From Azolla caroliniana (Eukaryota > Plantae > Polypodiophyta), in contig JBHGNT010001369.1 in NCBI GenBank assembly GCA_043228905.1, positions 1-9,331 of the forward strand: 9,331 nucleotides of DNA, read 5' to 3'. Within the stretch, counting starts at the first letter, position 1, and each line of letters starts with the position of its first letter. Under the pieces are notes generated by a model. The model saw only the letters and a list, made by a program, of their open reading frames with translations, searched no databases and was not told where the DNA came from. This document shows, one piece after another, positions 2,611-9,331 of this stretch. Both the position numbers and the translations under genes were made by a program.

Positions 2611-3014
2611 TGTCATGAACAAAAGTCTTGTCATGATTTGACCTCTTGACCTATTGTATTTAATCGATATGTTTTAACCGATACATCCAATACATAATCA
2701 TGTTACCTTACTAGATTATTATTAATGATCTATTCTACATGTAGGATATTAGAAGCTTCTAGAAAGCTCCGGAAGCTAGAACATTCTAGAAGCTTGTGCA
2801 TGAAAAGTAGTCTTTGCATGGGGATACATTTAGAGTCCATAAACATGTATAAATAGAGGGGTTCACCTTGGCCTTAGTCAAGGTGAACAACACCAATTAC
2901 GGAATCATAATTCAGTTCTTGTTCTCTTGACTACTTTCTCTCTCTCCTTATTATCTTGTCTATGAGCTCTCTCTCACTCTCTTAGTATTGAGCCTCGTCT
3001 ACTTGTCCGTAACA
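2611..3014 (+). repeat. 5' LTR of gypsy A
   Basis: Starts TGTCATGAACAAAAG (12/15 identical to TGTCGTGAAGAAAAC at 5965), TATAAATA at 2848-2855, CT-rich U5, ends GTAACA at 3014. An alternative start is 2629. Confidence 0.75.
2751..2792. promoter_or_regulatory. Two perfect heat-shock elements
   Basis: aGAAgcTTCtaGAAa at 2751-2765 and aGAAcaTTCtaGAAg at 2778-2792 match nGAAnnTTCnnGAAn and lie upstream of the TATA box. Confidence 0.7.
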
Positions 3015-3016
3015 AT

Positions 3017-3027
3017 TTGTTCACCTT
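3017..3027 (+). other. Non-tRNA, self-priming-type PBS of gypsy A
   Basis: TTGTTCACCTT, 2 nt after the LTR end, is the exact reverse complement of AAGGTGAACAA at 2880-2890. Confidence 0.8.
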
Positions 3028-4194: not shown

Positions 4195-4206
4195 TGGTAT
4201 GAAAGC
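4195..4206 (+). other. Primer binding site, tRNA-iMet type (copia 2)
   Basis: TGGTATGAAAGC versus TGGTATCAGAGC (10/12). Confidence 0.7.
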
Positions 4207-5964: not shown

Positions 5965-6622
5965 TGTCGTGAAGAAAACCGGCCATAGGCGGAATCGGAG
6001 AGAAAGCGCGTAAACCGGCCCTTACACGGATGGACGCATGACTTGACATTTTGTACACGAACCGGTGGGTGTAAATACGAAGCCGCACGAATTTATTAGG
6101 GGGGGGGATTGTGTGTATCCCGGGAAGGGGGACAGGGAATAAAGGGAAGAGGATCATGATAACAGTCACATCATGCATCGAAAGGATCATGACACTCACA
6201 TTATGACTCGAAAGGATTTGAACCCACGACCTTGTTGTACACATGTCAAATCCTTAACCATTGTATTAATATTCTTATATGTATAATCTCTAGAATATGA
6301 AATCTAATATCATAGGAATATTCTATATTACTCTACATTCTAGAATGACCTAGAATATTCTAGAGTGTTCTATACCACTAGAACCTTCTAGAATACTCTA
6401 GAGATCTTCTAGATTACTCTACATTCTAGGATAACCTAGAATATTCTAGAGAGTTCTCTATTACTTATAAATAGGGATCTATCACCCATCCCAAACCTAA
6501 ATTGGTTCAACGCCATTTTGTAGCCTACTCTTTGTAATCCATTTTACGCTTCAATATAATAATTCTCTTTCAATTATCTCTCTATCTCTTTTTCTCTCTC
6601 TTTCTCTCTCTTAGTCTTGACA
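5965..6622 (+). repeat. 5' LTR of gypsy B (~658 bp)
   Basis: TGTC at the point where copia integrase homology stops, TATAAATA at 6466-6473, CT-rich U5, ends TCTTGACA at 6622. Confidence 0.75.
6321..6460. promoter_or_regulatory. Heat-shock-element array within a duplicated U3 block
   Basis: Perfect aGAAccTTCtaGAAt at 6380-6394, near-perfect aGAAtaTTCtaGAGtgTTCt at 6352-6371 and its copy. A 54 bp direct repeat at 6321-6374 and 6407-6460 ends just before the TATA box. Confidence 0.7.
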
Positions 6623-6624
6623 GT

Positions 6625-6636
6625 TTGAACCAATTT
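6625..6636 (+). other. Non-tRNA, self-priming-type PBS of gypsy B
   Basis: TTGAACCAATTT, 2 nt after the LTR end, is the exact reverse complement of AAATTGGTTCAA at 6499-6510. Confidence 0.85.
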
Positions 6637-6710
6637 CTTTCCTTTCATCTCTTCATCTTCCACAAACCCTAACAAGTTCTCTTCTTCCTTCTCCTCTCCC
6701 CTCATAAGCT

Positions 6711-7835
6711 ATGGAGTCCGTGAGCAAACAAGAATACATGCGTGTTCTTTCTGAGCTCGACATGCTCACGAATAAATTTGTGGCATTAGAGCATGAGAAT
6801 CAAAGGCTACTTGGAGATCTACAGCACGTGAGCGCCGAAAAAGCTCAACAATATGAAGAGTTATCACAGCGGGTTCATCAACTTGAGGCGACTATATTGT
6901 CATTACGAGAGCAAGCGTCGGGGGCTTAGAACTCCCCTAGAGAGCCAAAGATCAGCCTCCCTGCCAAGTTTGATGGTACGAGGTCTTTATTTCGAGGCTT
7001 TTTGAATCAAGTTCGTTTAGTTATTCAGCTACATCCCAATCGGTATCCAACTGATGCTGCTCGTGTGGGATTAGTGGGAACTTTGCTATGCGGTACGGCG
7101 TTAGCATGGTTCGCACCACTTCTCGAGAAGAAATCACCATTGCTGGAGGATTTCGAGGCCTTTGTTAAAGAGTTTCAAGCTAGTTTCGGAGACACCGACA
7201 GCACTAGGACAGCGATAAACAAGATTCGAAGGCTCCGACAAGGAGATCGTCCCATGTCGTCTTATGCAGCCGATTTCCGTCTCTTGGCATGCGATATCCC
7301 TTGGGATGAGGCAGCTTTAATGGATCAATTCCGTCAAGGTTTGAGAAATGATGTCAAAGATCTTCTTCTTACTTTCCTTGAAGATCCGAAGTCACTTACA
7401 GAAGCCATTAGTCGAGCTGTGCGATGTGATAATCGCCTATTTGAGCGACGTTCTGAACGCCAACAAATGTTACGCCGCCAACCTGAACAGACTTACGCTT
7501 CCGTAGTCGCAACGCCTCCACAAGTTTCTAGACCCATTACAAGGGATGGCCCAACTCCGATGGAAATAGAGTCAACACAACGTCGTGGGCCGTTATCAGA
7601 TGCTGAGAAGCAACGACGTCGAGCGCATCGCCTCTGCCTGTATTGTGGTGGTTCAGGACATATAGCTGTAAATTGTCCACATAAACCTAGGCGTCAAGTA
7701 TACCAAGTAAGTGCCCATGAAAACCCTACATCGAGTTCTATTGTTACTTCTAATAACATAAATAAGCCTCATAGTCCATGTCATGAGAATAGATTCGATG
7801 TCTTGAGTCAATTAGAGGATGTGTTAAACGAGTAA
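6711..7835 (+). pseudogene. gag: Gypsy gag with a single in-frame TAG (6927-6929)
   Basis: ORFs 6711-6929 and 7002-7835 are in the same frame and joined by open codons (EPKISLPAKFDGTR). Coiled-coil-like N-terminus, capsid motifs (ALAWF, LRQGDRPMSSYAADFR), knuckle CLYCGGSGHIAVNC. Confidence 0.92.
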
Positions 7836-7895
7836 GTCCGGCCAAAATAGGAGCCATTTGGCTGGACCATCCTAGCTATGTAGAGTTAGTTCCTA
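7823..7895 (+). promoter_or_regulatory. -1 programmed ribosomal frameshift signal (gypsy B)
   Basis: G TTA AAC at 7823-7829 in gag phase, 6 nt spacer, 11 bp stem 7836-7846/7857-7867. Loop TAGGAGC can pair with GTTCCTA at 7889-7895. Confidence 0.78.
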
Positions 7896-9331
7896 GTCGT
7901 GGTTCCATTTCATCAAATCAAGTGAGTCGAGTTTTTTCAGCACAAGTCGAGCTTACCACATCTACATGTCATCGAGTCCTAGCCTCTGCCCTTCTAGATT
8001 CTGGAGCCAACTCTTGTTTCATGGATCGTGAATTTGCCTTGTCACAAAACATCCTCTTGAATAAGCTTCCCAACCCAGTAGCCGTAGGAGTCATCGATGG
8101 ACGTCCCATAGCATCAGGAGATATAGTCGAGGAGTCCGAGCCAATTAGGATAGTTCTTGGCAATTTGGCAAGCCTAATCTCTTTCAATATTATTCGTAGT
8201 CCGGACCACCCAATAGTTCTAGGTCTCCCCTGGTTTGAACTCCATAACCCGAAGATTGATTGGATGAAAAGAACAATTGAGGAGACTCGGAAAAAAAGCA
8301 CAAATCCCGCATCCCTCTCTCCTACATGTGCTAATAGATCCCCGGAGTTATCGCCCATCTCTTTACGACAGTTGCGGGAGGAAGGGGGGAACGAGGCCAT
8401 GTTCGTCTTCGCAATAGTAGCAACTCCATCATCCACTTCACGTGACGCGGATATTAAACTACCAGAGAAATACAAGGAGTTTTCAGATGTCTTTGATAAG
8501 GTGAAGGCCAATACATTGCCGGAGCATCGGCCATATGACTGCCCTATTGACTTACAACCAGGGAAAGAACCTCCATGGGGCCCAATTTATAATCTCTCCC
8601 CTGTAGAGCTAGAGACTTTGCGGGAATATATTGATGAGAATCTGGCAAACGGATTCATTCGGCATTCTAGATCCCCTGCTGGTGCACCTATCTTCTTCGT
8701 TAAGAAGAAGAATGGGACTCTTCGGTTGGTCGTGGATTATCGAGGGCTAAACAAAGTGACTATCCGAAATAGATATGCTCTACCATTAATCCCGAATCTT
8801 TTGGAACGTCTCAGTGGTGCAAAATATTTCACGCAGTTGGACCTTCGCGGAGCATATAATCTAGTTCGGATTCGCCCGGGGGATGAATGGAAGACAGCTT
8901 TCCGCACTCGCTATGGACATTTTGAGTATACAGTGATGCCATTTGGTCTCACGAATGCACCTGCTGTTTTCCAACATATGGCGAACGATATTTTTCGAGA
9001 TTTTCTTGATATCTTCACTATAGTTTACCTAGATGATATTTTAATCTACTCAAAGACCCAAGAGGAGCATGATGCACATGTTCGTCAAGTACTGTGCCGA
9101 CTCCGAGAATATGGTCTCTACGCAAAATTAGAAAAGTGTAGTTTCGGCCAGAATCAAGTGGAATTTTTGGGGTATGTTGTATCGTCAAATGGTATTGCTA
9201 TGGACCCCATGAAGGTACAGGCAATTTTAGAGTGGCAAACGCCCCTTTCAGTGCGTGATGTGCAATGTTTTCTCGGGTTTGCAAATTTTTATCGAAAATT
9301 TATTAAAGATTATTCCAAGGTTGTGCTTCCG
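7829..9331 (+). CDS. pol: Gypsy pol (aspartic protease and reverse transcriptase), 3'-partial, -1 frame relative to gag; absent from the ORF track
   Basis: Manually translated open frame to the window end: ALLDSGANSCF (DSG 7997-8005), IVLGLPWF, SPAGAPIFFVKKK, VDYRGLN, DEWKTAFRT, VMPFGLTNAPAVFQ, YLDD (9026-9037), FLGFANFYRKF. Confidence 0.96.

What the first reader, a model, noticed from the sequence alone, without database searches (positions are those of the whole stretch)
6466..6636. tRNA-independent self-priming architecture in gypsy element B
Seen: no TGG-type tRNA PBS follows the LTR. Instead 6625-6636 (TTGAACCAATTT) is a perfect 12 nt reverse complement of 6499-6510, which starts 33 nt after the first T of the TATA box, where transcription should begin. 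Established: S. pombe Tf1 primes reverse transcription with the first 11 nt of its own RNA annealed to the PBS and released by RNase H, whereas typical plant LTR elements (including both copias here) use tRNA. Inference: this plant element self-primes. I cannot tell whether this has already been reported for this family.
Basis: partly seen in the sequence, partly recalled or inferred. Interest (0 to 1): 0.85.

Follow-up and report, generated by a model that had tools for sequence, protein, structure and literature searches.

The report
Self-priming Tcn1-type plant retrotransposon
This jumping gene, likely from a moss, has no tRNA primer site; its primer site instead pairs with the predicted first 12 letters of its own RNA, a pairing kept through matching changes in dozens of relatives, so it likely primes its own copying as yeast Tf1 does, which is already predicted in print for this group of moss elements.

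Summary
6625-6636 is the exact reverse complement of 6499-6510, which starts 33 nt after the first T of the TATA box at 6466. It lies 2 nt past the LTR end, and no TGG follows. It is not chance. A second gypsy element in the window (A) has the same layout with a different 11-mer. Of 80 gag-related loci, all 33 where a TATA box and an LTR end were found pair at 10-12 of 12 positions; 3 more pair at 9 of 10. Nine of 12 pairs show compensatory changes. The element is a chromovirus whose RT groups with fungal and vertebrate elements, apart from seed-plant ones, which fits the Tcn1 clade of the Tf1/sushi group. No named Tcn1 reference could be aligned. The start site and RNase H cleavage are untested here. 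The scan noted the same layout in two other moss genomes. Verdict: real, likely self-priming, a new member of a known kind.

The parts
5965..6622 (+). 5' LTR of gypsy element B. The 3' end is at 6622. The 5' start is inferred at 5965 (TGTCGTGA, where the copia-2 integrase frame breaks off); most family copies begin at the equivalent of about 6185.
   Evidence: loose ends and depth; L044 alignment
6466..6473 (+). TATA box of the LTR
   Evidence: same position in 33 related loci
6499..6510 (+). Predicted self-primer: predicted first 12 nt of the transcript (start site not measured)
6511..6518 (+). Conserved CRCCA motif after the primer, then the 5' arm of a short inner helix (GTC or GTT in most relatives; TTT here, so weak in this copy)
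6574..6612 (+). (CT)n-rich U5 tract; several assemblies of relatives break here
6625..6636 (+). Primer-binding site complementary to 6499-6510, 2 nt after the LTR's terminal CA
6711..7835 (+). gag (Retrotrans_gag, Ty3_capsid, CCHC knuckle) with a premature stop at 6927-6929 in this copy
7793..9331 (+). pol (protease, RT; runs off the window), overlapping gag in the -1 frame. The 98%-identical relative P0008 continues with RNase H, integrase and a chromodomain.
2611..3014 (+). 5' LTR of a second, degraded gypsy element A, with TATA at 2848
2880..2890 (+). Predicted self-primer of element A (11 nt, different sequence, 32 nt after its TATA T)
3017..3027 (+). PBS of element A, exact complement of 2880-2890, 2 nt after its LTR end

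Best explanation
Element B is a Ty3/gypsy chromovirus, likely of the Tcn1 clade, whose PBS pairs with a 12-nt stretch of its own LTR and which likely primes reverse transcription with that stretch of its own RNA instead of a tRNA. Shown here: the 12-bp complement, its position 33 nt after the TATA box and 2 nt after the LTR end, its covariation across families, and a short covarying inner helix in most relatives. Inferred from Tf1: RNA polymerase II starts at A6499; nt 1-12 fold back across the 114-nt R-U5 loop onto the PBS; the RNase H domain of the element's RT cuts after about nt 12; and the new 3'-OH primes minus strong-stop DNA through U5 and R. Also inferred: copying of the primer during plus-strand synthesis would rewrite the PBS and help keep both strands matched. 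This copy carries a stop in gag and would need proteins from a sister copy.
For: Exact 12-bp complement at both expected anchors, and no TGG. Element A in the window has a different 11-mer in the same layout. Of 80 loci, 33 had an LTR-end anchor and a TATA box, both chosen without regard to pairing. With element A these 34 scored 12/12 in 22, 11/12 in 10 and 10/12 in 2; PBSs from other elements scored 12/12 in 5 of 476 trials, mostly 6-9. Three long-leader loci pair 9 of 10. On 17 rows (16 distinct primer/PBS combinations), 95.1% of primer-PBS cells pair and 9 of 12 pairs have double-sided changes; 0 of 500 shuffles reach the covariation score of 0.526, and slid controls give at most 0.108. 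RNAalifold finds the helix unprompted. The helix has mean pairing probability above 0.5 in 34 of 35 folds. The pairing starts at a YR step in 35 of 35 and 31-33 nt after the TATA T in 30 of 35. The RT falls in a 44-row clade (100/100) with amphibian, fish, gecko and fungal elements, apart from seed-plant and Closterium sequences. The family's Pol has a chromodomain with F/W/Y cage residues, and gag and pol overlap, as in 60% of classified Tcn1 elements.
Against: No transcript start, cleavage or cDNA end was measured. 44 of 80 loci could not be scored because the contigs were truncated or the LTR was missing or broken. One of these, L003 (97% gag identity), has the PBS but foreign DNA upstream of the (CT)n tract and scores 5 of 10 against a stray TATA-like box. 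Twelve of the 34 scored carry 1-2 unpaired or G-U positions in a 12-nt frame. Related rows share ancestry, so the shuffle count is not a probability. The inner helix is weak in this copy. A leader-side third duplex of the Tf1 'pretzel' is absent from this copy's MFE fold and was not tested across the family. Novikova 2010 found no sign of self-priming in Selaginella SM-Tcn1. No named Tcn1 sequence was in the tree.
Confidence: 0.88

Rival explanations
1. The R-PBS helix is real and selected but serves another purpose (packaging, dimerisation or translation control), and another primer starts reverse transcription.
For: Covariation shows pairing, not priming. No cDNA end or cleavage was observed.
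Against: The helix begins at the predicted first nucleotide and ends 2 nt from the LTR edge, which is the geometry priming needs. There is no TGG PBS to use instead. The same geometry primes Tf1 (PMC7175516 passage).
Confidence: 0.06
2. A host tRNA fragment or half-tRNA primes at this PBS, and the LTR match is secondary.
For: The primer's GGTTCAA core resembles the tRNA T-loop consensus (recalled, from no call). Half-tRNA priming exists in plant copias such as Osser, Bryco and Bianca. No host tRNA set was available.
Against: The PBS core takes 15 different 12-nt sequences among 34 elements, several with no T-loop likeness (for example TTGTTCACCTT, TTGACTAGACT, TTGATCTGCT). Each matches its own LTR rather than one shared sequence. 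tRNA priming offers no route for the LTR to track the PBS.
Confidence: 0.04
3. The match is chance or a by-product of local repeats.
For: The LTR's U3 is rich in TCTAGA palindromes, which give 5 other 12-nt inverted matches in the window.
Against: The match is not in those repeats, sits at two fixed anchors, and recurs with different sequences in 36 loci and in element A.
Confidence: 0.01

Closest known systems
Plant Tcn1-clade chromoviruses of mosses and club-mosses (REXdb; Neumann et al. 2019, PMC6317226; Novikova et al. 2010, PMC2864245)
   Same: Chromodomain with aromatic cage, gag and pol as separate overlapping frames, RT closer to fungal and vertebrate elements than to seed-plant ones, no tRNA PBS, and an LTR complement of 10 nt or more starting 0-5 nt after the LTR (Neumann's criterion; 83% of 1500 Tcn1 elements predicted to self-prime).
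   Different: No named Tcn1 sequence could be aligned, so membership is inferred. Neumann's call was a blastn match; the passages I read give no covariation, TATA spacing or inner-helix analysis. Their per-element table (Additional file 1) was too large to read and may already list this family's PBS.
Tf1/Tf2 of Schizosaccharomyces pombe, with Tj1 and Tosmo1-3 (Tf1/sushi group)
   Same: The 5' end of the RNA is complementary to a PBS just after the 5' LTR; chromovirus; an inner duplex lies between R and the U5 end.
   Different: Tf1's primer is 11 nt and experimentally proven; here it is mostly 12 nt (10-12) and only predicted. Tf1 needs a three-duplex 'pretzel'; here only the central helix and a short inner helix were seen. 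Tf1 is a single ORF (recalled); this element has overlapping gag and pol frames.
Tcn1 of Cryptococcus neoformans and sushi-like elements of vertebrates
   Same: Proposed to self-prime; Tcn1 has a programmed gag-pol frameshift. The nearest named RT hits are fungal (Cunninghamella 68%) and vertebrate (51-66%), against 44-50% for seed plants.
   Different: Different host kingdom; the primer sequences were not compared.
TAR-lineage Ty1/copia elements (Houba, Osr-1) of plants
   Same: Plant LTR elements predicted to self-prime (89% of 203).
   Different: Copia superfamily, unrelated to this gypsy element.

Membership tests
Ty3/gypsy chromovirus | Domain order gag-PR-RT-RH-IN with a C-terminal chromodomain | tested here: met
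   Window: gag, PR, RT. Relative P0008, 98% identical over RT: RT, RNase H, integrase, Chromo PF00385. The window itself ends inside RT.
Tcn1 clade / Tf1-sushi group | RT clusters with fungal and vertebrate Tf1/sushi elements, apart from seed-plant gypsy elements | tested here: met
   44-row clade at 100/100 holding the window RT, Cunninghamella, frog, fish and gecko proteins; Lolium, Tanacetum, Helianthus and Closterium lie outside. 54 rows were used (the window RT plus 53 of 120 hits); midpoint root.
Tcn1 clade / Tf1-sushi group | Clusters with named references (Cryptococcus Tcn1, PpatensLTRs, SM-Tcn1) | not testable with these tools
   No search returned a named Tcn1 reference.
Tcn1 clade / Tf1-sushi group | Chromodomain with the aromatic cage (95% of Tcn1) | tested here: met
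   By eye on the C-termini of P0008, P0012 and P0014: F or Y, W and Y at the cage positions (positions recalled from HP1). This is not unique to Tcn1.
Tcn1 clade / Tf1-sushi group | gag and pol in separate, overlapping frames | tested here: met
   gag stops at 7835; the pol frame is open from 7793, -1 relative to gag.
Tcn1 clade / Tf1-sushi group | Non-seed-plant host, 5-bp target-site duplication, 5.5-9.4 kb length | not testable with these tools
Tf1-type self-priming elements | PBS 0-5 nt after the LTR, complementary over 10 nt or more to the 5' LTR, with no tRNA PBS | tested here: met
   12 of 12, 2 nt after the LTR; conserved with covariation.
Tf1-type self-priming elements | The complementary stretch is the very 5' end of the RNA | tested here: inconclusive
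   Only indirect: TATA spacing of 31-33 nt in 30 of 35 and a YR step in 35 of 35. No raw RNA reads could be laid.
Tf1-type self-priming elements | Three-duplex 'pretzel' structure | tested here: inconclusive
   Central duplex yes. Inner 3-bp helix 92% paired across 17 rows but weak in this copy. Leader-side duplex absent from this copy's MFE and not tested across the family.
Tf1-type self-priming elements | RNase H cleavage releases the primer | not testable with these tools
   Needs an experiment. An RNase H domain is present in the family.

The most novel reading that the evidence does not exclude
Moss Tcn1-type elements use a distinct form of the Tf1 structure. A 10-12-nt primer has a freely covarying core but an invariant 3' end (CAA paired to TTG). 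It is followed by a CRCCA / AGT internal loop and a GTY:RAC inner helix that together mark the RNase H cut site, without Tf1's third duplex. My five paper searches found no such family-wide covariation map, and no experimental test of self-priming, for a plant element.
Probability: 0.45. Interest if true: 0.35.

Novelty: new member of a known kind. Interest (0 to 1): 0.17.

Why it matters
The covariation turns a published blastn-level prediction for plant Tcn1 elements into a better supported structural claim. It also names the invariant bases to mutate in a first plant test of self-primed reverse transcription. It does not reveal a new mechanism: self-priming is proven in Tf1 and already predicted for this clade.

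Tried and rejected
No whole genome is held, so the PBS could not be searched against host tRNAs and no genome-wide copy survey was possible. No RNA holder listed; all runs laid were contigs, which cannot show a start site. One search lists no variant in 6499-6510 while 6498 and 6512 vary, but it masked 6574-6680 and omitted variants seen, so I do not use it as proof of invariance. Viral contigs held no relative. Rfam gave only 6 weak miRNA-like matches, far below their gathering scores, on the U3 palindromes; rejected as chance. Three protein searches, a cluster look-up, two PDB searches and the ESM Atlas returned no named Tcn1 reference. A candidate PBS near gag in the L058-L080 group was a false anchor: that family has a leader of about 900 nt and its real PBS lies further up. 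My TATA pattern missed the window's own box (preceded by T), so element B was added by hand. Neumann's Additional files 1 and 3 were too large to read.

Full report
Observation. The window is a nest of LTR retrotransposons: copia 1 (PBS at 733), a degraded gypsy A (LTR 2611-3014), copia 2 inserted into A (PBS at 4195), and gypsy B inserted into the integrase frame of copia 2 at about 5965 (the nesting is read from the sequence). In B, TATAAATA starts at 6466, and 6499-6510 (AAATTGGTTCAA) is the exact reverse complement of 6625-6636 (TTGAACCAATTT). The second stretch lies 2 nt after the LTR's terminal TGACA, and no TGG follows. The window has 6 positions with a perfect 12-nt inverted match within 300 nt; 5 belong to TCTAGA palindromes in U3. 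Element A has the same layout with another sequence: TATA at 2848, 2880-2890 complementary to 3017-3027, 2 nt after its LTR end. Neither copia has such a match.

Family test. A gag search of metagenome contigs kept the best 80 of 232 related stretches (53-98% identity). I anchored each locus on an LTR-end motif and a TATA box without regard to pairing, then scored the first 12 PBS bases against the best register in a 16-position window after the TATA box. Of the 80 loci, 33 had both anchors, 15 had a PBS but no TATA box (contig end, or LTR broken at the (CT)n tract), and 32 had no anchor within 400 nt. With element A, the 34 scored elements gave 12/12 in 22, 11/12 in 10 and 10/12 in 2. PBSs from other elements gave 12/12 in 5 of 476 trials, 11/12 in 38, 10/12 in 33 and 9 or fewer in 400; the high values are expected where PBS variants differ by only one or two bases. 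Looking up to 1500 nt upstream recovered 3 long-leader loci at 9 of 10. The other 44 loci stay unscored; one, L003, has the PBS but foreign DNA in place of U3 and R and scores 5 of 10 against a stray TATA-like box.

Covariation. There are 16 distinct primer/PBS combinations among 35 elements. On an alignment of 17 rows (one per combination plus both window elements), the 12-bp helix is 95.1% paired and 9 of 12 pairs have double-sided changes. The whole structure has 48 such cells against 15.2 +/- 2.7 in shuffles. The covariation score of 0.526 was reached by 0 of 500 shuffles and by no slid control (at most 0.108). Kinship inflates such counts, and the helix was chosen from these sequences, but several positions take three different Watson-Crick pair types. 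RNAalifold predicts the same helix unprompted. Single-sequence folds give it a mean probability above 0.5 in 34 of 35 elements. The three pairs at the primer's 3' end (CAA:TTG) never vary. A CRCCA motif follows, then a 3-bp inner helix GTC:GAC or GTT:AAC, paired in 24, 28 and 27 of 28 distinct contexts. In the window's B copy this helix is weak (TTT against GAC). The 5' edge of the pairing lies 31-33 nt after the TATA T in 30 of 35 elements, at CA (32), TA (2) or CG (1). That fits the plant TATA-to-start spacing and the YR initiator rule (both recalled), but the start itself is not measured.

Identity of the element. gag (6711-7835, with a stop at 6927-6929 that most copies in the laid runs lack) overlaps pol in the -1 frame. 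A relative 98% identical over RT carries RNase H, integrase and a chromodomain with aromatic-cage residues. In a maximum-likelihood RT tree of 54 rows (the window RT plus 53 of 120 hits: selected named ones and every third id, aligned over 230 aa or more), B lies in a 33-row clade (99/99) with unnamed contig proteins and a Cunninghamella element. That clade sits inside a 44-row clade (100/100) with vertebrate elements, apart from seed-plant and Closterium sequences. Identities are 68% to the fungal RT, 51-66% to vertebrate and 44-50% to seed-plant RTs. This is the described profile of the Tcn1 clade, but no named Tcn1 reference could be retrieved, so membership and a moss host are inferred. 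The family is high-copy in runs of several coded organisms, including leaf and plant metagenomes.

Mechanism. By analogy with Tf1, transcription would start at A6499 and nt 1-12 would pair with the PBS across a 114-nt R-U5 loop. RNase H would cut after about nt 12, and the freed 3'-OH would prime minus strong-stop DNA. In Tf1 the first 11 bases pair with the PBS and RNase H cuts between bases 11 and 12 (PMC7175516, passages), within a three-duplex 'pretzel' (bioRxiv 10.1101/2022.12.06.519325, passages). Tj1 is proposed to do the same (PMC4600332, passages). The pairing and its position are shown here; start, cleavage and priming are inferred. Confidence 0.88. Rivals: a helix with another role (0.06), priming by a tRNA fragment (0.04; host tRNAs not available), chance (0.01).

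What is known. Neumann et al. 2019 (PMC6317226; passages and Additional file 5) state that most Tcn1 elements of mosses and club-mosses lack tRNA PBSs and are predicted to self-prime (83% of 1500). Their criterion was an LTR complement of at least 10 nt starting 0-5 nt after the LTR, which this element meets. They predict the same for TAR copias (89% of 203). Novikova et al. 2010 (PMC2864245; passages and section 6) defined plant Tcn1 but saw no self-priming signal in Selaginella SM-Tcn1. PMC3350952 (passages) added nothing on priming. Neumann's Additional files 1 and 3 could not be read and may list this family. Five searches (listings, open-licence papers only) showed no experimental test in a plant and no covariation analysis for plant Tcn1. 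The primary Levin and Butler papers were seen only as references. Two earlier AI notes of this scan reached the same verdict in other moss genomes; I read them after forming my view and do not count them as support.

Verdict. The feature is real, conserved and most likely a Tf1-type self-primer. It is a new member of a known kind, already predicted for its clade. Interest 0.17.

Noticed in passing
window 2848-3027: Gypsy element A has the same self-priming layout with a different 11-mer and a 7-bp inner stem; L075 shares its primer and PBS.
   Followed up: yes
window 5965-6215: This copy's LTR seems about 220 nt longer at the 5' end than most family copies and has a 30-nt tandem duplication (6156-6215) where the usual LTR start lies. 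The extension has low depth in two of four runs and none in the other two at 6100-6130: a minor subfamily or a nested solo LTR.
   Followed up: partly
window 6510, runs X17 and X18: Four contigs laid up to 6510 continue with the reverse complement of the U5 end. They may be minus-strand PBS contigs caught by the complement, library fold-back chimeras, or primer-cDNA junction products; they cannot be told apart here.
   Followed up: no
L073:1972-3001, L077, L078, L066: A related family has a leader of about 900 nt between PBS and gag, yet keeps the TATA-primer-PBS layout (9 of 10 paired in three loci).
   Followed up: partly
L069:960-1520; L026 and L027: Elements lie in tandem sharing one LTR (chromodomain, PPT, LTR, PBS, gag in L069; two gag copies about 5.3 kb apart on one contig).
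   Followed up: no
window 6306-6465 and 2750-2800: U3 of both gypsy LTRs carries TCTAGA-rich direct and inverted repeats upstream of the TATA box, also seen in relatives; possibly enhancer repeats.
   Followed up: no
window 6927-6929: Premature stop in gag of this copy, so it is likely non-autonomous.
   Followed up: partly
P0039: A close relative's Pol (80% RT identity) carries a precomputed PF00692 domain (dUTPase by my recall of the accession). dUTPase has been reported in fungal gypsy elements (PMC2864245).
   Followed up: no
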